This document shows, piece by piece, positions 3,601 through 59,469 of a DNA stretch of 64,000 bases. The stretch is from the NCBI GenBank assembly GCA_963804975.1, contig CAWDSG010000002.1, forward strand, positions 341,015-405,014, written 5' to 3'. The notes under the pieces are model-generated. The model saw nothing but the letters and a program-made list of their open reading frames with translations. It made no database searches and had not been told where the DNA came from. The first letter of the stretch is position 1; each line of letters opens with the position of its first letter. Position numbers and translations under genes: made by a program. The DNA comes from an uncultured bacterium. GTDB lineage: Bacteria > Patescibacteriota > Minisyncoccia > Phycocordibacterales > GWA1-40-21.

Positions 3601-3712
3601 AGGATCGCGAGGCGTTTCGTTTGAAAAGCACGGATATTTTCTTGCTAGAAAATTCCTCGAGCTCGCGCCGTCGCGCTCCCTAGGCTTTTCAAACGAAACG
3701 CCTCGCTTGCTA
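3601..3712 (+). repeat. long-hairpin intergenic element, copy A (family with copies at 9698, 59357, 17424, 52119)
   Basis: Perfect 23-bp inverted arms gcgaggcgtttcgtttgaaaagc (3607-3629) / gcttttcaaacgaaacgcctcgc (3684-3706) around a 54-nt loop carrying the family motifs ATTTTCTtGCTaGAAAAT and GCCGTCGCgCTCCcTAG; starts at the first base after the rplI stop codon. Confidence 0.8.
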
Positions 3713-9190: not shown

Positions 9191-9697
9191 ATGATAGAAC
9201 TTATAACAACGTCGTTTTTCGTTTTCTCATCTATCTATGGAGGGCCGACAGGAGCTGTGGCAGATAATCAAGCTGCAACTTCTCCGGAACCTACGATAGC
9301 TAAAGAGGCGACAACGACCACAAACCTGCCTACCGGCCAGGCAGGAATACCGACAAACGAAGGAATCAAAGCTAAAGCGATAGCTTACTTCAAAAACACG
9401 CCGATACTTGCGGATATTGCCGGATGCGAATCAAGATTCAGGCAGTATGACAAGAACGGCAAAGTATTGATTGGCGAGGTCAATAAAGGCGATATCGGAG
9501 TCATGCAGATAAACAAATATTATCATGCAGACAAAGCGGAATCGCTCGGTTATGACCTCAATACTGCGGAAGGCAATATGGCATATGCCAAGTATCTCTA
9601 TGAGAAGGAAGGCACAAAGCCATGGAATTCGTCATCGGCTTGCTGGAAAGGAGGAGATACGCAATCTTCCTCGACAGATCAGGTCGCAATGAGATAA
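9191..9697 (+). CDS. secreted Rpf-like / lysozyme-like transglycosylase-domain protein
   Basis: 'IAGCESRFRQY...GDIGVMQINKYYH...KPWNSSSACW' resembles the resuscitation-promoting-factor transglycosylase-like domain (AxCES ... G.MQ ... W...C). Track ORF begins with TTG at 9131; ATG 9191 gives a signal-peptide-like N-terminus. Confidence 0.55.
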   Translation: MIELITTSFFVFSSIYGGPTGAVADNQAATSPEPTIAKEATTTTNLPTGQAGIPTNEGIKAKAIAYFKNTPILADIAGCESRFRQYDKNGKVLIGEVNKGDIGVMQINKYYHADKAESLGYDLNTAEGNMAYAKYLYEKEGTKPWNSSSACWKGGDTQSSSTDQVAMR

Positions 9698-9810
9698 AAG
9701 CTCGCTCGGATATTCAATTTTGAGATCCGCATAATTTTCTGCTGAAAATTTGCTCAGGACTTGTGCCGTCGCACTCCGTAGCTCTCAAAATTGAATGTCC
9801 TCGCTCGTGC
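9698..9810 (+). repeat. long-hairpin intergenic element, copy B
   Basis: Starts at base after stop (9695-9697); 20-bp arms ggatattcaattttgagatc (9708-9727) / gctctcaaaattgaatgtcc (9781-9800); loop has ATTTTCTGCTGAAAAT and GCCGTCGCaCTCCgTAG; flanked by ctcgctc direct repeats. Confidence 0.85.
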
Positions 9811-14488: not shown

Positions 14489-15547
14489 TTAACTCACTAA
14501 AACCAAAATAGTTCCGAGAATAACCGACATGACCGCAATAATCCAGTATCTCATCACTATTTTTTCTCTTGACCACCCGATAGCTTCAAGATGGTGATGA
14601 AGCGGCGCAACCTTGAATACTTTTTTATTGAAAAATTTGTACGAAACAATCTGAATGATATCGGAAAGCGAAGTGGCGACCAAAGGAAAAGCGATAATCG
14701 GCAGTACAAGAACGGAATTCGTTATAAACGCAATGACGGAAATCAAGACGGTAAGCCCAAGCATGCCGGTTTCTCCCATATAAAACCGAGCCGGCGGGAC
14801 ATTGAACCAAAGAAACGCCAAAATTCCTCCAGAGGTCGCTGCGCACAAAGCAGAGATATCTATCTGATGATTGGCGAAAGAAATAATGGCGTATGCGGTG
14901 AAAATTGAAGCCAGAATTCCGCCCGAAAGCCCGTCAATTCCGTCAACAACACTTGTGGAAAAAACCGCAAGCATAATGATGACGAAAAAAGGTATGAACA
15001 GCAGACCGATCGTCGCGTCTCCGAAAAACGGTACGTGGATATAATTTACGCCAAGCTTGTAATAAAACCAAAGGCTGATAAAAAAGCCTATAGCGATGAC
15101 CGTAACAATTTTTATTTTTCTGTAAATCAATTTATCTTCCGCGTACGATCCTTTTCCGATTATCTGCAGTATGTCGTCAATAAGCCCTATAATCGCTCCG
15201 GCAATGAATGCGGCAAGCGGAACCAGCGTCTGGTTTCTGCTCAAAAAATTCAATTTGGAAGTCATATCGTTCGGAAAAATTATAGACAGGAGATAAATCA
15301 ATCCGATGGAAAGAAGCACCGATATCCAGATAATAATTCCGCCAATCCTTGGAGTCGAAAGCTCGCCTTTGGTATTATGGATTTTTGCGAAATTGTCGTT
15401 TGTATCCGATAAAGTCCTCGGATTTTTTTTCCACATCTTATGCCTGTAAAAAAAATCGGTGAAAAAAGGCGTAATGAAAATAGCCAAAAAAAATGTCAAA
15501 GCGGACGGTATAACGACTTTTAATACATCTATCATCATTTTATTCAA
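14489..15547 (-). CDS. mraY: phospho-N-acetylmuramoyl-pentapeptide transferase
   Basis: 'VDGIDGLSGG' MraY signature; 352 aa polytopic. Confidence 0.9.
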   Translation of the reverse strand: MNKMMIDVLKVVIPSALTFFLAIFITPFFTDFFYRHKMWKKNPRTLSDTNDNFAKIHNTKGELSTPRIGGIIIWISVLLSIGLIYLLSIIFPNDMTSKLNFLSRNQTLVPLAAFIAGAIIGLIDDILQIIGKGSYAEDKLIYRKIKIVTVIAIGFFISLWFYYKLGVNYIHVPFFGDATIGLLFIPFFVIIMLAVFSTSVVDGIDGLSGGILASIFTAYAIISFANHQIDISALCAATSGGILAFLWFNVPPARFYMGETGMLGLTVLISVIAFITNSVLVLPIIAFPLVATSLSDIIQIVSYKFFNKKVFKVAPLHHHLEAIGWSREKIVMRYWIIAVMSVILGTILVLVS

Positions 15548-17379
15548 GATTTAACGATAAAAATATTGTACCATAACGCGAGCATCAATAAAGTGTAGAT
15601 TTTTCTTGAATTGTCCGTTTTCTTGCCGGTATGGTCCGAAATCATTTTTCGGATATAATCGGTGTTAAAGTGTTTTTTTATATATTCGTTGCCGAGGATT
15701 TTTTCAAAAATATTTTTTCTGTCCTCGGTAAGCCAGTTTCTTATCGGTATGGGAAAACCGAGTTTTTTTCTGACACGCGTTTTTTCAGGAATGATATTTT
15801 TAAACGATTCCCGCAGCAGATATTTTGTGATTCCTCCTTTCCATTTCAATCTGTCCGGCAGTATCTGTGCGAGCTTATACACTTCCATATCCAAAAACGG
15901 CACACGGAGTTCAAGGGAATGAGCCATTGTCATTTTGTCCGCTTTGGCCAAAATGTCGCCGACAAGCCAAGTATTTATGTCTATATACTGCATTTTTGAC
16001 GAATCGGAAAGGTTTTTTATATTCTGGTACAGAGGTTTTAAGGAAATTGCCGTGTAATTGCCCCCTTTCCATAAATTTGCCAGTTCATTTTTTTTGAAAA
16101 TTGACGCGTTTCCGATGTACCAATCCTCGATATTTTCATACGCCCTGTGCAAAAAATTTTTTCCCCAAAAATAAAAAGGCAGGCGGATAAAAAATCCGAT
16201 CAAATTTTTGGGCAGCCATGATATTTTTTTGTAGGCGAACGGAGCGAGATAAATGTTGTATCCGCCGAAAAGCTCGTCGGCGCCTTCGCCCGAAAGGACG
16301 ACGGTAACATGTTTTCTCGCTTCTCTGGCCACAAAATAAAGCCCGATAGCCGAAGGGTCCGCGACCGGCTCGTCAAAATGCCATGCCGCCTTTTCCAAAT
16401 GCGAGAAATATTCATCCGGTCCGACAGTGATTTCCGTATGGTCGGTTCCCAAAAAATCCGATGTCTGCATTGATTCCCTGCCTTCGGTCAGCGTATCAAA
16501 TCCCACCGTAAACGTTTTTACTTTTTTGCCTTTTTTTGTGCGGTTCAAAATTTTCTGCATCAAAGTGGCAATGATGCTTGAATCGATTCCACCCGATAAA
16601 AACGATCCGACGGGGACATCGGCAATCATATGATGCTCCACGGAATCCTCAATGGTTTTTAATGTTTTATTTTTAAGGTTTCCATTCAAATCGCTGTTTT
16701 GCCGGAATTCAAAAGACCAATATCTTTTTATCTCATATTTTCCGGAATCGACGGAAATTTTCATAAAATGGCCGGGCGAGAGCTTGAAAATATTTTTTAA
16801 AAAAGTTTCTTCCAGAGGATTGTATTGAAAGGACAGGTAGTTATATACGGCGTTGTCATTAACTTCCCTTTTAAAAGCGGGAATAGACAAGAAACTTTTT
16901 ATTTCCGATGAAAAAGCTAAAACGGAATTTTCCTGTTTTAAATAATATAATGGCTTGATGCCGAAGAAATCTCTGGCTATGAAAATAGTTTTTGCGTTCC
17001 TGTCATAAATTGAAAATGCGAACATTCCCCTTAATTTTACCAGCATTTTATCGCCGTATTTTTCGTAGAGATGCAAAATCACTTCCGTGTCGGAATTCGT
17101 TTTCCAGACAAAATCTTTTTCAATCTCTTTTCTCAGTTCTTTGTAATTGTAAATCTCGCCGTTAAAAAAAATAATTTTTGATCCGTCATCGGATAAAATA
17201 GGCTGTTTTCCCGTAGAAAGATCTATTATAGATAATCTTCTCATGCCCAATCCCACGAAATTATCAGCAAAATAACCATCCTGGTCAGGACCTCGATGGA
17301 CAAGAGCATCAACCATTTTTCTGTTTATGCCGGCCTTGTCCGGTATATTCGCGCCGATAATTCCGCAGATTCCGCACAT
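15544..17379 (-). CDS. asnB: asparagine synthetase (glutamine-hydrolysing) family amidotransferase
   Basis: 'MCGICGIIG' N-terminal nucleophile Cys2, 'SGGIDSS' PP-loop; 611 aa; 4-nt overlap with mraY start. Confidence 0.85.
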   Translation of the reverse strand: MCGICGIIGANIPDKAGINRKMVDALVHRGPDQDGYFADNFVGLGMRRLSIIDLSTGKQPILSDDGSKIIFFNGEIYNYKELRKEIEKDFVWKTNSDTEVILHLYEKYGDKMLVKLRGMFAFSIYDRNAKTIFIARDFFGIKPLYYLKQENSVLAFSSEIKSFLSIPAFKREVNDNAVYNYLSFQYNPLEETFLKNIFKLSPGHFMKISVDSGKYEIKRYWSFEFRQNSDLNGNLKNKTLKTIEDSVEHHMIADVPVGSFLSGGIDSSIIATLMQKILNRTKKGKKVKTFTVGFDTLTEGRESMQTSDFLGTDHTEITVGPDEYFSHLEKAAWHFDEPVADPSAIGLYFVAREARKHVTVVLSGEGADELFGGYNIYLAPFAYKKISWLPKNLIGFFIRLPFYFWGKNFLHRAYENIEDWYIGNASIFKKNELANLWKGGNYTAISLKPLYQNIKNLSDSSKMQYIDINTWLVGDILAKADKMTMAHSLELRVPFLDMEVYKLAQILPDRLKWKGGITKYLLRESFKNIIPEKTRVRKKLGFPIPIRNWLTEDRKNIFEKILGNEYIKKHFNTDYIRKMISDHTGKKTDNSRKIYTLLMLALWYNIFIVKS

Positions 17380-17423
17380 ATTTCATAATTTAACATATTT
17401 TTACACAAAAGTCCTCTATTTTT

Positions 17424-17533
17424 AACAAGCAAAGGAAGTAATTTTAAATGCCTTGGGAGGAGCGACGGCGACGTACAGAGAAAATTTTCAGCAGAAAATT
17501 TTCGTGCATTTAAAATTACTTCCTTTGCGAGTC
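17424..17533 (-). repeat. long-hairpin intergenic element, copy D (minus orientation)
   Basis: Perfect 23-bp arms gcaaaggaagtaattttaaatgc (17429-17451) / gcatttaaaattacttcctttgc (17506-17528); loop (read on minus strand) ATTTTCTGCTGAAAAT ... GCCGTCGCtCCTCC; lies 3' of the minus-strand DacA-like gene, before asnB. Confidence 0.8.
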
Positions 17534-17572
17534 TTATTCTTTTTGACTTTTTATTTCTTGCGAGACAATTAT

Positions 17573-18496
17573 TCATTCGGAAAGTTTCTCAAGTGCAACA
17601 TGCACGAGCTGTTCCATATCCGAAAACCTGCCTTTTTCGGTCGAACCGAGCAGAGAGATGATCACCGGATGCATGGGGCCGGCGTCAAATGCGATGACAA
17701 GGTTTCCTCCGGCAAGATCGGTATAGCCGGTTTTTGAAGCAATCAGCCCGGGAATCTTGTTTACAAGCATATCGGTATTTATGGCGATATGCTTTATGCC
17801 GTTTTCCGAAACAAAAGATGCCGATTCCTCGGTTGTTTTAGATACAAGAGAAGGATAATTTTCCAATATTTTCTGCAAAAGCACGGCGATATCGCATGCG
17901 GAACTGTAAGCGCCGCCCATATCCGTATTTACATCAAGCCCGGTTTCATTGAAAAAAATTGTGTTTGCAAGTTCAAGCGTTTTGGCTTTTTTATTCATCA
18001 AATCTATTGTACTTGAACTCCGTTCTCCTTCATATTCGTTAAGCGTGCGAGAAAGAGCATGAATGCCGTCATTTGAAGAGCTCATTAAACTGAAATCAAG
18101 AAGATCCACAGCACTCCATTTTTCGCCGGAAAGAAGCCCGGTATCGCCTTCCTCGGCTATATCTTCTTTGCTGATTACAATCGTGCTTGTGGCGGGCAAG
18201 TTTTCGGTAATGATGAGCCCGGACATAAGCTTTGTTATGGAGGCAATCGGCAATTGTTCATGCTCATTTTTTGCAAAAAGAGCTTTTTTTCCGTTTACAT
18301 CGTATACATAAAACGATTTTGCCTGAATGCTCGCGAGCTCGGGCGAATAATCGTAAGTTTCATTCGCTGTTTGTTTGTTTTTTTCGGAAGTGTTCGTAAA
18401 TATTCTGACGCCTAAAATGACAATAATTATGGCAAGGATAAAAAAGAGCGAAAATAAAATAATTTCATTTCTATTTAAAATTTTTTCCTCATCCAT
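17573..18496 (-). CDS. D-alanyl-D-alanine carboxypeptidase (S11, PBP5-like)
   Basis: 'SITKLMS' SxxK active-site motif, N-terminal TM anchor; 307 aa. Confidence 0.8.
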   Translation of the reverse strand: MDEEKILNRNEIILFSLFFILAIIIVILGVRIFTNTSEKNKQTANETYDYSPELASIQAKSFYVYDVNGKKALFAKNEHEQLPIASITKLMSGLIITENLPATSTIVISKEDIAEEGDTGLLSGEKWSAVDLLDFSLMSSSNDGIHALSRTLNEYEGERSSSTIDLMNKKAKTLELANTIFFNETGLDVNTDMGGAYSSACDIAVLLQKILENYPSLVSKTTEESASFVSENGIKHIAINTDMLVNKIPGLIASKTGYTDLAGGNLVIAFDAGPMHPVIISLLGSTEKGRFSDMEQLVHVALEKLSE

Positions 18497-31736: not shown

Positions 31737-31740
31737 TTGT

Positions 31741-31830
31741 ATTATGCGAAAATTATGCGAATGTTGCGAATATCAACGAAAATTAATTTGAATTTATTCG
31801 TAGCCATTCGTTTTATTCGCATAATTTTCG
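31741..31830. promoter_or_regulatory. iterated TTATGCGAA motif cluster (3 direct + 1 inverted copy) inside efflux operon
   Basis: aTTATGCGAAaaTTATGCGAAtgTTGCGAAtat at 31741-31772 and inverted ttattcgcataa at 31813-31824. Confidence 0.35.
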
Positions 31831-31834
31831 TATA

Positions 31835-33793
31835 TTATCTTCCTCCTGTGAATGTTCCCACGGCGCCGCCTCCGAATTCTCCGACTCTGATAGCGCCGCC
31901 GGCTCCGCCAATTGTTCTTGTTGTCGCTTGCGTTGCGGCAGTTTTTACCGATGAGGCGCTGCCCGTGATTGTTCTTGTAACAACCATTTCTCCTTCCGTA
32001 AGGCCTGAAAGAATCTCAGTTTCGGTATCATTTGATATGCCGATTGTCACTTCAACTTTTACGACATTCGGCTGCGCAGCATTTGAAAGCGATTGCGCCT
32101 GGCTTTGCACGGAACTGCTGCCATATCTGAATTGCTTTGTCGTTGAACCGTTTGCAAATGTAGATGATGCGAAAGTGGACGAAGCAAAAGTTGAGGAAGC
32201 GAAATTCCTGTTTCTTGTTGAAGAACCAAAACTGCCATTGAAATTACCCATAAAACTTGAAGACGCAATTTTCGCCACAAGAACATATTTTTTCCCGCCG
32301 GAAGTTGTAATTGCCGAACTTGAAATCATAAGCACATTCTGATGATCAATGATATTTATATTCGCTATGGCGGTCATTCCTGTTTTTATAGAATCATTCT
32401 GTTCATCAAGTGCAATCTGAACGCCGTAGCTGACAACGCCTTGGCTTACTGTTCCGAGAGGGTCCACATATCTTACATGCCCGGCGATAGTGATATTTGG
32501 CAATGCGTCAAAAGTAATCTGTACCGGATTATTTGCCGCCACTTTTGCCGCATCAACTTCGTTTAAAGTCAGATTAACGACTCGTTGCGTTGTGATAAGC
32601 GTGCCAAGCGAATCCGATGACGAAACTTGCTGGCCAAGCTGTGCGGTAAGGCCGCCAATTTGTCCGTCAAACGGCGCAGTGATTATCCTGCTCTGATAAT
32701 TCTGCTCCGCGTTTGCAAGATTTGCATTTGCGTTATCAAGAGCTGATTTTGAAACGGTAACATCATCAGGATTTGGCGGGGCGATTTTCAAAGCTAAAAA
32801 TTGCTGGTCGTTTGCGAGATTTGTCACGGCGTTATTATAAGATTGGAGCAGAGATATAAGCGAACTGATTGCCGAATCGGCGCCTGATCTTGCGCTTGAA
32901 GCTCCCGATTTATCTGAATTTAATGTAGCTTGCGCAGTTGAACCTTGCGCTACGCTGTACGAACTGAATAAGGAAGTCATATTGTCAAAATAAGTCCTTA
33001 TTTGGTTTAAATATGAAATTGAATCATTGAGGAGAGTAACAAGTTCAGTAGAACTTATTGTCGAACTCGTTGCATTATTTATCTCTTCGTCCCACGCAAT
33101 AAGATTTGATCCGACAGAAACTCTGCCGGCTGCAACGCTGTTAACCAATTGCTGATTTAAAAAATCTATTCCGTTTATCATTAAGCTTGGATTTACGCCG
33201 GTTATATTCTGAAAAAACGGATCTGTGCTGATATAAACGGAATTTGATACCGATGAATATGCGTTTCGTATGCCAAGCAATATATTTTGCTGGTCGTTTG
33301 CAAGCCCAGTTTCGTCGGATTGAATCGTATTTTTGATTGACTGCAAATCCGATGCGGTTGGACCACCGACAAGTTTGTCATAACTTGCCTGAGCGCTTTC
33401 CACGCTTGCTTTTGCCTGATTGAGCGATTGGAGAGCATTTTTTCCGTCAAGTACAGCTATCACCTGCCCTGCTTTTACAAAATCGCCATTTTGAACTTTC
33501 ACTGAAACAATCTGACCAAGCGTTTGTGTCTGCCCCACTGTCTGCGGCTTTATACTTACTTCTCCGAGGGTGGCCACTTGCCCTGATCCACTGACAGAGA
33601 CCGCCAAATCCCCTCTTTGCACTTTGCCGAAAACATATTGAGTGACACTTGCTGATCCGCCTTTTGCAAACAGCACATAGACAAGCGATACGAAGATAAT
33701 TACCGAAACGATTGTAAGCGGTTTGTGCGCTGAGGCAAACGGTTTGATTTTTATTGTCCAGGCAACTTTAATTTTTGATAGAGCTGTTTTCAT
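31835..33793 (-). CDS. HlyD/MacA-type periplasmic adaptor with long low-complexity C-terminal extension
   Basis: N-terminal TM, biotin-lipoyl-like hairpins ('VQRGDLAVSVSGSGQV', 'KVQNGDFVKAGQVIAVLDG'), long coiled coil, then 'FASSTFASSTFASSTF' and G-rich tail; 652 aa. Confidence 0.75.
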   Translation of the reverse strand: MKTALSKIKVAWTIKIKPFASAHKPLTIVSVIIFVSLVYVLFAKGGSASVTQYVFGKVQRGDLAVSVSGSGQVATLGEVSIKPQTVGQTQTLGQIVSVKVQNGDFVKAGQVIAVLDGKNALQSLNQAKASVESAQASYDKLVGGPTASDLQSIKNTIQSDETGLANDQQNILLGIRNAYSSVSNSVYISTDPFFQNITGVNPSLMINGIDFLNQQLVNSVAAGRVSVGSNLIAWDEEINNATSSTISSTELVTLLNDSISYLNQIRTYFDNMTSLFSSYSVAQGSTAQATLNSDKSGASSARSGADSAISSLISLLQSYNNAVTNLANDQQFLALKIAPPNPDDVTVSKSALDNANANLANAEQNYQSRIITAPFDGQIGGLTAQLGQQVSSSDSLGTLITTQRVVNLTLNEVDAAKVAANNPVQITFDALPNITIAGHVRYVDPLGTVSQGVVSYGVQIALDEQNDSIKTGMTAIANINIIDHQNVLMISSSAITTSGGKKYVLVAKIASSSFMGNFNGSFGSSTRNRNFASSTFASSTFASSTFANGSTTKQFRYGSSSVQSQAQSLSNAAQPNVVKVEVTIGISNDTETEILSGLTEGEMVVTRTITGSASSVKTAATQATTRTIGGAGGAIRVGEFGGGAVGTFTGGR

Positions 33794-41037: not shown

Positions 41038-41075
41038 GTTGACAAAAACCCCGAGGTTAAACCTCGGGGTTTTTC
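41038..41075. terminator. GC-rich palindromic unit acting as bidirectional terminator (copy P1)
   Basis: gttgacaaaaaCCCCGAGGttaaaCCTCGGGGttttt; convergent genes on both sides. Confidence 0.8.
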
Positions 41076-50294: not shown

Positions 50295-51227
50295 ATGTTT
50301 AATAAAAATATAAAAACGGCTTTCTTTGGCAATTCGGAATTTTCTCTGATTGTACTTCTCGAGCTTAAAAAACTCGGTTTTTTGCCTGATATTGTAGTTA
50401 CCACTCCCGACAAGCCGGTTGGCAGAAAAATGATTCTTACGCCGACACAGACGAAGGTTTGGGCGCAGGACAATTCAATAGAATATATTGAACCGGTAAA
50501 ACTGAAAGATGAAAGTTTTCTAGAAAAGATGAAAGAATACAATCTTTTTATCGTTGCTTCCTACGGGAAAATAATCCCGAAAGCACTTATTGATATTCCT
50601 AAATATAAAGCGCTTAATATTCATCCTTCGCTTCTGCCGAAATATCGCGGTCCATCGCCCTTGCAGGAGCAGATTTTAAATAATGAGAAAAATGTCGGTG
50701 TTTCAATAATGCTTATAGACGAACAAATGGATCACGGGGCGATTTTGGCACAAAAAAAAGTGGACCTACCTGACCGGCAGGCAGGAATCCCTTCTTGGCC
50801 CGTTGGTTTTAATGAATTGTCTGAAATTCTAGGAAAAGAAGGTGCTAAGTTGTTGATGAAAATTTTACCGGAATGGATAAAAGGCAAGATCAAGCCGAAG
50901 GAACAAAATCACAGCGAAGCGACTTTTACAAAAAAAGTTGAAAAGCAGGACGGACTAATAATCTGTCCCGATGTCTCACATCAGGAAAATGTTGATAAAA
51001 ACCCCGAGGTTAAACCTCGGGGAAACGAAACATATAAAGATTATTTGAAATATTTGGCCTATGAAGATTGGCCGGGAACATATTTTGAAGCTACGCACAA
51101 TGGTAAAAAATTGAAAGTTATCGTTAAAAAAGCTGTTTGGAAAGATGATGAACTTGAAATTCTCCGCGTTGTTCCGGAAGGTAAAAAAGAGATGGATTAT
51201 AAGGACTTTTTGCGAGGCTTAAGATAA
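50295..51227 (+). CDS. fmt: methionyl-tRNA formyltransferase
   Basis: 'HPSLLPKYRGPSPLQ' SLLP motif; 310 aa. Contains an in-frame copy of the CCCCGAGG palindromic unit at 50991-51022. Confidence 0.9.
   Translation: MFNKNIKTAFFGNSEFSLIVLLELKKLGFLPDIVVTTPDKPVGRKMILTPTQTKVWAQDNSIEYIEPVKLKDESFLEKMKEYNLFIVASYGKIIPKALIDIPKYKALNIHPSLLPKYRGPSPLQEQILNNEKNVGVSIMLIDEQMDHGAILAQKKVDLPDRQAGIPSWPVGFNELSEILGKEGAKLLMKILPEWIKGKIKPKEQNHSEATFTKKVEKQDGLIICPDVSHQENVDKNPEVKPRGNETYKDYLKYLAYEDWPGTYFEATHNGKKLKVIVKKAVWKDDELEILRVVPEGKKEMDYKDFLRGLR
50991..51022. repeat. GC-rich palindromic unit, copy P2, embedded in-frame in fmt
   Basis: gttgataaaaaCCCCGAGGttaaaCCTCGGGG identical over 31/32 nt to P1; no T-run. Confidence 0.8.
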
Positions 51228-52118: not shown

Positions 52119-52247
52119 TATCCTGGAGTAGTTGAAATGCGAATACATGGAGCATTTCAAAGACGGAGCACGTCGGTGCGAGTCGGGGTCGCAAGATTTT
52201 CAGCAGAAAATACTTGTGACCAACGATTCCGCGAGCTACTCTGGATA
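52119..52247 (-). repeat. degenerate long-hairpin element, copy E
   Basis: Minus-strand loop motif ATTTTCTGCTGAAAAT present exactly; outer arms tatcctggagtag / ctactctggata pair imperfectly; CGTCGG core diverged. Confidence 0.45.
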
Positions 52248-52255
52248 TAAAATAA

Positions 52256-52327
52256 TCCGGAGTAGCTCAGCGGTAGAGCGATCGCCTGTTAAGCGATTGG
52301 TCGCAGGTTCGATCCCTGCCTCCGGAG
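52256..52327 (+). tRNA. tRNA-Asn (anticodon GUU)
   Basis: UCCGGAG UA GCUC-AGCGGUA-GAGC G AUCGC-CUGUUAA-GCGAU UGGUC GCAGG-UUCGAUC-CCUGC CUCCGGA G; perfect 7-bp acceptor stem, U33, A37; CCA not encoded. Confidence 0.85.
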
Positions 52328-52401
52328 CAAAAGCTAGTACTTGACAAATAGGATATAATTATTATCATATTTACAGAGGTACAAAATCTTAAAAAGGGGG
52401 T

Positions 52402-56219: not shown

Positions 56220-56255
56220 TAAAAACCCCGAGGTTTAACCTCGGGGGATTTTTAT
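56215..56255. terminator. GC-rich palindromic unit acting as terminator (copy P3)
   Basis: gttgataaaaaCCCCGAGGtttaaCCTCGGGGgattttta; mpg stop TGA lies inside the conserved GTTGAT flank. Confidence 0.8.
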
Positions 56256-58241: not shown

Positions 58242-59356
58242 AAAAGAAGAAAACTTTTTTAAAAAATCCTTATGTATGGCTCTCGGCAAGCTTGCTTTAT
58301 TTGGCTGCAATCATAATTTGCGGATTTTTTAATGTTAAAACTTCTCCCGCCCAGACAGTTTCAAATATCGTAAAAGATATTTTTATTGCTCCAAAATATC
58401 CGCCGCTTAATATCGCCGATTACGATCTGCGCCTCGACAAGCTTGCGCATCTTTTGCCGAGAGACGCAACAAACACTCTGTCGCTTATCTCCACTTCAAC
58501 AGCGACTTCCACCGTCAATATCGCAACATCAACGCGTCTTTGGCCTGTACAAGCCCCGTATCCTCTGGATGGGGCAATTTTTCCTTTCAAACGCATCATC
58601 GCCTATTACGGAAATTATTATTCAAAAAATATGGGCGTACTTGGGCAATATCCGGCAGATGAAATGCTTTCCATGCTCCAAGCGGAAGTGAATAAATGGA
58701 ATCTTGCCGATCCCGGCACGCCTGCCTCACCTGCATTGCAATATATTGCGGTTACAGCCCAAGGGTATAAAGGCAATGACGGCAAATATCGCTCTAGAAT
58801 GCCGTCTGACCAGATAGATAAAACTATATCGCTTGCATCAGAGATAAACGGTATTGTCATTCTTGATGTGCAGATCGGGCAAAGCACGCTGGAAAACGAA
58901 ATTCCTCCTCTTCTAAAATATTTAAAGATGCCGCAAGTAAATCTCGCCATTGATCCGGAATTTGCGATGAAAGCAAGCCAAGTGCCTGGAGCCGAGTATG
59001 TCGGCACAATTGATGCAGTGGATATCAATTATGTGATAAATTTTCTCGCGAAGCTTGTAAAAGAATACGATCTTCCGCCGAAAATTCTGATAATCCACCG
59101 ATACAGGGAAAATATGGTTACCAATTATAAAGAAATTGAAAAGATACCCGAAGTGCAGGTTGTAATGAATATGGACGGCTGGGGCGATATCGGCGGCAAA
59201 ATGGCAATTTATCAGGAATATATAACGGATCAGCCGGTGCAGTTTGCCGGCATCAAGCTTTTTTATCACAATGACACTCTGGCGAGCAGCACTATGATGA
59301 CGCCGGATGAAATTTTGAAACTGACTCCTGAACCGATTTATATCCAGTATCAATAA
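58238..59356 (+). CDS. membrane-anchored extracytoplasmic hypothetical protein
   Basis: 372 aa, N-terminal TM; no family recognised; 4-nt overlap with aminotransferase. Confidence 0.5.
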   Translation: MKKKKTFLKNPYVWLSASLLYLAAIIICGFFNVKTSPAQTVSNIVKDIFIAPKYPPLNIADYDLRLDKLAHLLPRDATNTLSLISTSTATSTVNIATSTRLWPVQAPYPLDGAIFPFKRIIAYYGNYYSKNMGVLGQYPADEMLSMLQAEVNKWNLADPGTPASPALQYIAVTAQGYKGNDGKYRSRMPSDQIDKTISLASEINGIVILDVQIGQSTLENEIPPLLKYLKMPQVNLAIDPEFAMKASQVPGAEYVGTIDAVDINYVINFLAKLVKEYDLPPKILIIHRYRENMVTNYKEIEKIPEVQVVMNMDGWGDIGGKMAIYQEYITDQPVQFAGIKLFYHNDTLASSTMMTPDEILKLTPEPIYIQYQ

Positions 59357-59469
59357 AAGCTCACTCGGACATTTAATTTTGAGATCCGCATAATTTTCTG
59401 CTGAAAATTTGCTCAGGACTCATGCCGACGCATTCCGTAGCTCTCAAAATTAAATGTCCTCGCTCGCTG
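59357..59469 (+). repeat. long-hairpin intergenic element, copy C
   Basis: Starts at base after stop; arms ggacatttaattttgagatc (59367-59386) / gctctcaaaattaaatgtcc (59440-59459) perfectly complementary; about 90 percent identical to copy B with compensatory stem changes; fills the intergenic gap. Confidence 0.85.

What the first reader, a model, noticed from the sequence alone, without database searches (positions are those of the whole stretch)
17424..17533. Minus-oriented copy of the hairpin family sits inside the cell-wall operon between the DacA-like gene and asnB
Copy D lies between two co-directional genes, the DD-carboxypeptidase gene upstream and the asnB-mraY-ftsW-murG-gltX string downstream. 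It therefore cannot simply be a bidirectional terminator. It may act as an attenuator or processing/stability site, or it may insulate asnB-mraY from dac transcription. It is the only clear copy not abutting a stop codon, with a gap of about 35 nt.
Basis: partly seen in the sequence, partly recalled or inferred. Interest (0 to 1): 0.55.

Follow-up and report, generated by a model that had tools for sequence, protein, structure and literature searches.

The report
Palindromic repeat inserted in cell-wall operon
The hairpin between the DD-carboxypeptidase gene and asnB is a lineage-specific copy of a previously undescribed palindromic repeat that is spread through the whole phylum Patescibacteria and even sits in frame inside housekeeping genes, so it looks like tolerated selfish DNA and not a built-in switch of this operon.

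Summary
Window 17429-17528 is a perfect 23-bp inverted repeat around a 54-nt core. It lies between the co-directional dacA-like gene and asnB, 44 nt after the dacA stop codon. It is one of exactly four copies in the window.

The regulatory reading is not backed by comparison. The two closest relatives with the same gene order (ScpA-ScpB-DacA-AsnB-MraY-FtsW-MurG) have 21- and 39-nt dacA-asnB spacers and no element.

The family occurs in at least 119 loci, almost all Patescibacteria. It has a variable, near-perfect outer stem and a conserved three-way-junction core with strong covariation. Its orientation to neighbouring genes is nearly random, and it has no Rfam match.

It also lies in frame, in both orientations, inside PheT, UvrD, RecG, RsmA, TsaD, PepN and a phosphoglucomutase. 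In PheT relatives it is found intact, decayed or absent. This is the behaviour of Rickettsia palindromic elements.

The strand that folds best (G·U and tandem G·A) is the reverse complement of the operon mRNA at copy D. On the mRNA, D still forms a -44 kcal/mol hairpin with no U-tract. It is therefore not an intrinsic terminator, and it may be an RNase III site. How the element moves, and whether it has an RNA function, is unknown.

The parts
17429..17451 (.). Copy D, outer stem P1, left arm (GCAAAGGAAGTAATTTTAAATGC)
   Evidence: 23/23 complementary to 17506-17528. No shuffle of the window matched.
17452..17505 (+). Copy D, conserved 54-nt core read on the better-folding (plus) strand. P3 is at 17454-17477 and includes a tandem G·A. 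P2 is GAAAATTTTC-AGCA-GAAAATTTTC at 17480-17503.
   Evidence: Covariance-model hit at 17439-17518(+), 54.0 bits. Helices covary in 114 family members.
17506..17528 (.). Copy D, outer stem P1, right arm
17407..17551 (.). Full palindromic unit of D, including the outer helix AAAAGTC/GACTTTT (17545-17551 with 17407-17413). This is roughly the material absent from the empty sites in relatives.
   Evidence: Folds. Empty spacers of 21 and 39 nt in L202 and L201.
17534..17536 (-). TAA that abuts D as in copies A-C. It is in frame with dacA but lies 12 codons after the real TGA stop.
   Evidence: Sequence. Orthologue L121 ends at the same TGA.
17573..18496 (-). dacA-like gene (Peptidase_S11), upstream of D
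15544..17379 (-). asnB, downstream of D. It is followed by mraY, ftsW, murG and gltX.
3604..3712 (-). Copy A. Its better-folding strand is minus. It lies between convergent rplI and rpmA.
   Evidence: 97.8 bits
9694..9807 (-). Copy B, between an unnamed ORF and a nitroreductase gene. It is 93% identical to C, stem included.
59353..59466 (-). Copy C, between an unnamed ORF and a VTT-domain gene
52122..52245 (+). Class 2 relative. It shares P2 and P3 and has an extra hairpin. It lies directly upstream of tRNA-Asn and is co-oriented with it.

Best explanation
Copy D is a lineage-specific insertion of a Patescibacteria-wide palindromic repeat. The repeat behaves like the Rickettsia palindromic elements (RPE): a small, non-coding, probably selfish unit that spreads to new sites, including in-frame positions in essential genes. 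It then persists or decays.

**Structure of the unit.**
- A variable, almost perfectly paired outer stem of 8-40 bp.
- A conserved ~54-nt three-way junction made of two hairpins, with purine-rich tandem G·A internal loops.

**Shown.**
- Family membership of D.
- Covariation in all helices.
- Strand-specific folding.
- Empty orthologous sites in relatives.
- Copying of a unit with its stem between unrelated loci.
- In-frame copies in housekeeping genes, and their decay.

**Inferred.**
- Because only one strand shows G·U and G·A pairing, the unit propagates or acts through a single-stranded intermediate of that strand, either ssDNA or RNA. At D that strand is the plus strand, antisense to the operon.
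- D has no dedicated role in the dacA-asnB operon. It landed in a spacer that is normally 21-39 nt long and is tolerated there.
- On the mRNA it still forms a 23-bp perfect hairpin (-44 kcal/mol) with no U-tract, so transcription reads through to asnB-mraY-ftsW-murG. At most the duplex offers an RNase III-type cleavage or 3'-end-stabilising site, as described for Correia elements.

The enzyme that moves the element is not identified.
For: **Family.**
- A pattern scan found at least 119 loci, almost all Patescibacteria. Viral contigs gave none. Rfam 15 has no match.

**Structure.**
- 93.4% of cells are paired and all 29 pairs show changes on both sides.
- The covariation score is 0.584, against 0.153 in shuffles (0 of 500 reach it) and 0.04-0.10 in slid controls.

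**Strand.**
- In outer stems, A·C outnumbers G·U 54 to 11 on the strand that is mRNA-sense at D.
- The reverse complement is more stable in 84 of 89 class 1 copies, by 6.9 kcal/mol on average.
- In paired columns read on the better-folding strand (plus at D), G·U is 89 against A·C 34, and G·A is 103 against C·U 22.

**Empty sites.**
- L201 (asnB 70% identical) has a 39-nt dacA-asnB spacer. L202 (73%) has a 21-nt spacer. Both have the same gene order.
- L121 joins dacA directly to mraY.
- The model with filters off finds nothing in any of the three.

**Mobility.**
- B and C are 93% identical over 114 nt, stem included, at unrelated loci.
- The same stem type occurs in L057 and L083, where the flanking genes are not homologous.

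**Inside genes.**
- Copies lie in frame inside phosphoglucomutase, TsaD, RsmA, PheT and UvrD (Pfam-checked) and inside RecG and PepN.
- In PheT relatives the same linker carries the element in three different frames or orientations, as decayed remnants, or not at all.

**Context.**
- Orientation to neighbouring genes is mixed. With the arrow giving a neighbour's direction relative to the mRNA-sense strand of D, the counts are >E> 28, <E< 18, >E< 15 and <E> 10.
- There is no terminator-like site at D and no promoter-like site between D and asnB.
- RPE and Correia behaviour is taken from PMC10969869.
Against: - The 54-nt core is nearly identical across very distant lineages. Copy A differs by one base from a Saccharibacteria copy. 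That is unusual for purely selfish DNA.
- No transposase, integrase or reverse transcriptase appeared among about 40 window ORFs scanned.
- There are no conserved terminal repeats and no consistent target-site duplication.
- Orthologous in-gene copies keep P3 paired through compensatory changes. This could reflect selection at the site.
- The class 2 relative is co-oriented with tRNA genes in all 13 loci where one is near. That points to a genuine RNA.
- No transcript data exist for either strand.
Confidence: 0.6

Rival explanations
1. D is a cis-acting element of the operon mRNA. The hairpin would attenuate read-through, direct endonucleolytic processing, or stabilise the dacA 3' end. This would uncouple dacA from asnB-mraY expression.
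For: - D is transcribed only if the operon is read through, and no promoter-like site lies between D and asnB.
- It forms a perfect 23-bp duplex of -44 kcal/mol on the mRNA strand.
- RNase III cleaves Correia elements in transcripts (PMC10969869).
- In the window all four copies follow a gene end on the mRNA-sense strand.
Against: - The element is absent from the same junction in L201 and L202, and from L121.
- No U-tract follows it on the mRNA strand.
- On the mRNA strand P3 has only 2 pairs, and the family's G·U and G·A pairs become A·C and C·U.
- Family-wide orientation is nearly random, and copies lie inside ORFs.
Confidence: 0.15
2. The element is a functional structured RNA made from its better-folding strand (plus at D). 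It would be a protein-binding three-way junction or a cis-antisense RNA. The tRNA-linked class 2 form would be the stand-alone gene, and D would be an antisense-oriented copy.
For: - Strand-specific G·U and tandem G·A pairing, and strong covariation.
- The core is conserved across the phylum.
- Class 2 is co-oriented with tRNA genes in 13 of 13 loci. It sometimes lies between two tRNAs with about 35-nt spacers.
- A T-rich tract follows D on the plus strand.
Against: - The duplicated unit (B and C) carries no promoter. No consistent promoter or U-tract appears across 88 copies.
- Class 1 orientation to neighbouring genes is random.
- Copies in both orientations lie inside coding sequences and decay there.
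- Relatives lack D.
Confidence: 0.15
3. The hairpin is a transcription terminator. It would be bidirectional, or it would act on the plus strand to stop antisense transcription from entering dacA.
For: - A, B and C lie between convergent genes.
- On the better-folding strand (minus at B and C, plus at D), B and C end in UUUUAU and D is followed by a U-rich tract.
- In L090 each of two convergent genes has its own copy.
Against: - The terminator scan found none at D.
- Family-wide, a T-run follows only 10 of 88 copies, the same as the control side.
- The genome uses ordinary short G+C hairpin terminators, one of them right next to copy A.
- Copies on this strand lie inside RecG, TsaD, UvrD and PepN without splitting them.
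Confidence: 0.07

Closest known systems
Rickettsia palindromic elements (RPE)
   Same: - Short palindromic, non-coding repeats in a reduced genome, dispersed in many copies.
- Often inserted in frame into unrelated housekeeping genes and then translated.
- No associated transposase.
- Persist at orthologous sites.
(PMC10969869.)
   Different: - A different phylum, and sequence similarity was not tested.
- Here the centre is conserved and the arms vary, the reverse of a repeat defined by its ends.
- The core is a covarying three-way junction with strand-specific G·U and G·A pairing.
- It is conserved across a whole phylum and not just one genus.
- A variant is linked to tRNA operons.
Correia / NEMIS elements of Neisseria (MITEs)
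   Same: - About 100-150 bp intergenic inverted-repeat elements.
- They are co-transcribed with neighbouring genes, and their paired arms are cut by RNase III (PMC10969869).
- This is the best precedent for what D could do to the mRNA.
   Different: - Correia elements have conserved 26-bp terminal repeats, a TA duplication and an IHF site.
- Here the arms are not conserved between copies and no consistent duplication was found.
REP / REPIN elements with RAYT transposases
   Same: - Hairpin-forming intergenic repeats.
- They act as single strands in a strand-specific way and persist for long periods.
   Different: - REPs are 20-40 nt with a conserved GTAG and a cognate RAYT gene.
- Neither was seen here.
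- REPs are not known for in-frame insertion into genes.
Intrinsic (rho-independent) terminators
   Same: A stable hairpin at gene ends, often between convergent genes.
   Different: - D has a 23-bp A+U-rich stem, a 54-nt structured loop and no U-tract on the mRNA strand.
- The genome has ordinary terminators of its own.

Membership tests
RPE-like palindromic repeat | Many dispersed copies of one short non-coding palindromic unit | tested here: met
   4 copies in 64 kb. 114 model hits in 0.76 Mb of related loci, up to 3 per 8 kb.
RPE-like palindromic repeat | In-frame insertion into unrelated protein-coding genes with the reading frame kept open | tested here: met
   Met for the family, not for D itself. 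Host genes are PGM, TsaD, RsmA, PheT, UvrD, RecG and PepN. PheT relatives confirm it. Five of the six frames of the core are stop-free.
RPE-like palindromic repeat | Presence/absence at orthologous sites | tested here: met
   The dacA-asnB spacers in L201 and L202 are empty. The PheT linker carries the element intact, decayed or not at all.
RPE-like palindromic repeat | Sequence homology to the ten Rickettsia RPE families | not tested
   No RPE sequences were at hand. The claim is 'works like', not 'member of'.
MITE (miniature inverted-repeat transposable element) | Terminal inverted repeats conserved among copies | tested here: not met
   Arms differ between A, B/C and D. Only 7 arm pairs among about 90 copies are alike.
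MITE (miniature inverted-repeat transposable element) | Target-site duplication | tested here: not met
   TTA flanks occur in only 16-17 of 89 copies, all in one subfamily. B and C have no duplication at their boundaries.
MITE (miniature inverted-repeat transposable element) | Cognate transposase in the genome | tested here: inconclusive
   None among about 40 window ORFs. The rest of the genome was not seen.
Intrinsic terminator | G+C-rich stem, short loop, U-tract directly downstream on the transcribed strand | tested here: not met
   The scan found none. The stem is followed by UUGUUAAAAAUAGAGG on the mRNA strand.
Any Rfam 15 family (ribozymes, riboswitches, sRNAs) | Score at or above the family's gathering threshold | tested here: not met
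   Only two tRNAs in the window pass. The best hits at D are miRNA hairpin models far below threshold.
Integron attC site | R''/R' core sites (RYYYAAC / GTTRRRY), a cassette array, and an integrase nearby | tested here: not met
   No core sites by eye in the four copies. The neighbours are housekeeping genes, not cassettes. No integrase was found among the ORFs scanned.

The most novel reading that the evidence does not exclude
The core could be a phylum-wide functional RNA: a three-way junction with tandem G·A motifs that binds a conserved Patescibacteria factor. Its stand-alone form (class 2) would be co-transcribed with tRNAs. The dispersed class 1 copies, D included, would be derivatives copied through an RNA or single-strand intermediate. 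That would make this a bacterial counterpart of SINEs, which derive from small structured RNAs.
Probability: 0.2. Interest if true: 0.85.

Novelty: new variant of a known kind. Interest (0 to 1): 0.55.

Why it matters
**For this operon.**
- The hairpin should not be annotated as a regulator.
- The conserved state is a tight dacA-asnB junction.

**More broadly.**
- Patescibacteria have some of the smallest and most streamlined bacterial genomes. Even so, they carry a conserved, structured palindromic repeat at about one copy per 15 kb in this window.
- The repeat remodels essential proteins such as PheT, UvrD, RecG, TsaD and RsmA.
- It breaks assemblies. An independent contig ends inside D.
- It could mislead gene callers and RNA-motif searches.

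**Open questions it raises.**
- Its strand-specific fold and its tRNA-linked relative point to an unknown single-strand mobility mechanism, or to an unknown RNA-protein system, in a phylum with very few known mobile elements.
- It is a second, independent case of the RPE phenomenon. That makes the question of how such repeats spread without a transposase open to comparison.

Tried and rejected
- **UGA recoding or read-through of dacA to the TAA that abuts D.** Rejected. Orthologue L121 ends at the same TGA, and long ORFs in the window are intact under table 11.
- **Known RNA families.** Rfam found nothing at gathering or E-value thresholds. By eye the junction strands do not fit hammerhead or twister cores.
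- **Phage origin.** No pattern hits in viral contigs.
- **TAA/TTA target-site duplication as an explanation for stop-codon abutment.** This holds only for one subfamily.
- **An own promoter or a U-tract on the better-folding strand (plus at D).** No positional signal in 88 copies.
- **An orientation rule from replication.** GC skew in the window simply follows gene direction, and 8-kb loci are too short to test it.
- **An RNA intron removed from host genes.** Unlikely. In-gene copies in both orientations keep the frame open and decay as coding sequence.
- **Literature.** Five full-text searches and three papers gave no description of this element in Patescibacteria. Two 2026 preprints on intergenic features listed were not read. 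One find call failed on an invalid search term. The other preprint was not held.
- **RNAalifold on a plain MAFFT alignment.** It recovered only the two inner hairpins. The full structure needed a hand-made seed and a covariance model.

Full report
**1. What is at the coordinates**

The plus strand at 17429-17451 (GCAAAGGAAGTAATTTTAAATGC) is perfectly complementary to 17506-17528, with 54 nt between the arms. No dinucleotide-preserving shuffle of the window produced a match. As RNA the region folds at -44.4 kcal/mol on the minus strand (z = -10.0) and at -46.2 on the plus strand (z = -7.5). An outer helix AAAAGTC/GACTTTT extends the palindromic unit to 17407-17551.

The neighbouring genes are all on the minus strand:
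- Peptidase_S11 (dacA-like), 17573-18496.
- asnB, 15544-17379.
- MraY, FtsW, MurG and GltX downstream, and ScpB and ScpA upstream.

The dacA TGA lies 44 nt from the stem base. A TAA at 17536-17534 abuts the element as in the other copies and is in frame with dacA. An orthologue with 64% identity ends at the same ...LSE-TGA, so this is not recoding.

**2. The family in the window**

Three further copies share the architecture of about 23 bp of stem around a core of about 54 nt:
- A, 3604-3712.
- B, 9694-9807.
- C, 59353-59466.

All three are in the orientation opposite to D. A covariance model built only from copies in other genomes, run with filters off, finds exactly these four and nothing else above noise. 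B and C are 93% identical over 114 nt, stem included, although they follow unrelated genes.

**3. The family elsewhere**

- A degenerate core pattern hit at least 119 stretches in the species-representative genome collection. Nearly all are Patescibacteria: Paceibacterota, Saccharibacteria, and Nomura-, Adler-, Kaiser-, Taylor- and Moraniibacteria.
- The same pattern hit nothing in 2.9 million viral contigs.
- Rfam 15 has no matching family.
- Literature searches found no description.
- The window itself is Patescibacteria. Its AsnB is identical to a protein on a 606-kb NCBI contig, and the nearest named homologues are from Zambryskibacteria, Minisyncoccia and Paceibacterota.

Two classes exist. 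Class 1, which includes D, has the core enclosed by a variable stem of 8-40 bp that is often perfect. Class 2 has an extra hairpin. The window has one class 2 copy at about 52122-52245(+), just upstream of tRNA-Asn.

**4. Structure**

On 114 model-aligned copies:
- 93.4% of cells form standard pairs.
- All 29 pairs show changes on both sides.
- The covariation score is 0.584, against 0.153 in shuffles (0 of 500 reach it) and 0.04-0.10 when partners are slid.

The alignment was fitted to the model, so these numbers lean towards the structure. The outer stems are unrelated in sequence between copies, however, and covariation is also visible by eye in the raw MAFFT alignments.

The core is a three-way junction with three helices:
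- P1, the outer stem.
- P3, an inner GCGC-GACG-GCGC hairpin plus a 2-3 bp outer part. The two parts are separated by a purine-rich loop.
- P2, about 10 bp of A/U pairs closed by an AGCA loop.

**5. Which strand folds**

The evidence points to one strand:
- On the strand that is mRNA-sense at D, non-Watson-Crick positions in 68 outer stems are A·C 54 times and G·U 11 times.
- Across all paired columns read on the other strand, G·U is 89 against A·C 34 (p = 7e-7). G·A is 103 against C·U 22 (p = 1e-13).
- That other strand is more stable in 84 of 89 class 1 copies (mean 6.9 kcal/mol) and in 26 of 26 class 2 copies.
- On it, the flanking CTCG/CTCG boxes and the P3 internal loop become tandem G·A motifs.

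At D the favoured strand is the plus strand, antisense to the operon. On the mRNA strand, D's P3 keeps only two pairs.

Class 2 copies are co-oriented with tRNA genes in all 13 loci where a tRNA lies within 400 nt. In some loci they sit between two tRNAs with about 35-nt spacers.

**6. Relation to genes**

In the counts below, an arrow gives a neighbouring gene's direction relative to the strand that is mRNA-sense at D.
- Class 1 copies take every context: >E> 28, <E< 18, >E< 15 and <E> 10.
- A sharp peak of stop codons lies 36-37 nt before the core on one strand. It belongs to a subfamily whose flank reads TAAAGGCTCGCTCGG. Family-wide there is no consistent TTA/TAA duplication.
- There is no positional promoter or U-tract signal.

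**7. Copies inside genes**

Long ORFs read straight through the element in both orientations. The host genes are:
- a phosphoglucomutase, where the element lies between Pfam domains I and II;
- TsaD, RsmA, PheT and UvrD (Pfam-checked);
- RecG and PepN.

Five of the six frames of the core are free of stop codons.

Among 120 PheT relatives, the linker before FKPWSxYPFITRDIAV is found in several states:
- the element in one frame (GYFSAEKFLVLAPSRSQ);
- the element in a second frame (NFLLEISSV..RRR);
- the element on the other strand (RNFSAEKYPC);
- decayed remnants;
- nothing, in proteins of 591-594 aa.

This is the behaviour reported for Rickettsia palindromic elements (PMC10969869).

**8. Is D a conserved part of the operon?**

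No.
- The two closest available relatives have the same order HIT-ScpA-ScpB-DacA-AsnB-MraY-FtsW-MurG.
- Their dacA-asnB spacers are 39 nt (L201, AsnB 70% identical) and 21 nt (L202, 73%).
- A third relative (L121) joins dacA to mraY with a 48-nt spacer.
- The model with filters off finds no element in any of the three.
- The last ~20 nt before the asnB ATG align between the window and L202. This places about 145-170 nt of extra material, the palindromic unit, between dacA and that conserved stretch.
- An independent assembly of the same organism breaks inside D's core.

**9. What D does**

- On the mRNA strand no U-tract follows the stem, the terminator scan is empty, and no promoter-like site lies between D and asnB.
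- The essential genes downstream therefore most likely depend on read-through (inference).
- The only plausible by-product is that a perfect 23-bp duplex is a substrate for RNase III, or that it protects the dacA 3' end. Correia elements behave this way. This cannot be tested here.

**10. Open problems**

- The core is almost invariant across distant classes. Copy A differs by one base from a Saccharibacteria copy.
- Three subfamilies coexist in this one genome.
- Orthologous in-gene copies keep P3 paired through compensatory changes: GGGC/GCCC, GAGC/GCTC and GCGC/GCGC.
- No mobility gene was seen among about 40 window ORFs.

Template-switch correction of quasi-palindromes could keep arms complementary without selection. 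It would not explain the G·U and G·A strand bias. A functional RNA, or a single-strand recognition step, therefore remains a live alternative.

**Verdict**

- D is best read as a lineage-specific copy of a new RPE-like palindromic repeat of Patescibacteria. It is not an operon regulator.
- The family, more than copy D itself, is the interesting object.

Noticed in passing
window 52122-52245 (+), next to tRNA-Asn 52256-52328: A class 2 relative of the element. It shares P2 and P3 and has an extra hairpin, GAAATGC-11 nt-GCATTTC. A TATTAT box lies just upstream and it is co-oriented with the tRNA. In 13 of 13 other loci with a nearby tRNA it is also co-oriented, and it sometimes lies between two tRNAs. 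It may be a genuine small RNA. It is not in Rfam.
   Followed up: partly
L038, L095, L118 and 120 PheT homologues (P0001-P0120): One linker of PheT is a hotspot. The element is translated there in three different frames or orientations. Other relatives have decayed remnants or nothing, so the same essential enzyme comes in many insertion states.
   Followed up: partly
L026 and L112 (UvrD-like helicases): The element lies at the same position after EADFVATKILE in two orthologues, but in opposite orientations and with unrelated arms. L026 seems to carry a second, partial copy near residue 110.
   Followed up: no
L089 5990-6080, between rplI and rpmA: At the locus that holds copy A in the window, this genome has a different perfect 23-bp hairpin. 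The inner stem has the same TTTTGG/CCAAAA motif, but the 32-nt loop is unrelated. The hairpin is flanked by A6 and T6 like a bidirectional terminator. This may mean loop modules are swapped on a common stem type.
   Followed up: no
window 41044-41074, 50992-51022, 56221-56251: Three nearly identical copies of AAAAACCCCGAGGTT(A/T)AACCTCGGGGTTTTT. Each is a textbook bidirectional terminator. It is odd that independent terminators share the same sequence.
   Followed up: no
L001 1-92 (Logan assembly ERR10755942): An independent assembly of the same organism is identical in sequence, but its contig ends inside D's core. The palindromic repeat evidently breaks short-read assemblies.
   Followed up: yes
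L008 882-1074, L062 1224-1462, L090 5130-5365: Pairs of elements lie back to back in opposite orientations. In L090 each of two convergent genes has its own copy just after its stop codon.
   Followed up: partly
window 31740-31837: A 41-nt imperfect inverted repeat (78% complementary) rich in TGCGAA/TTCGCA units, between two minus-strand genes. It is unrelated to the family studied.
   Followed up: no
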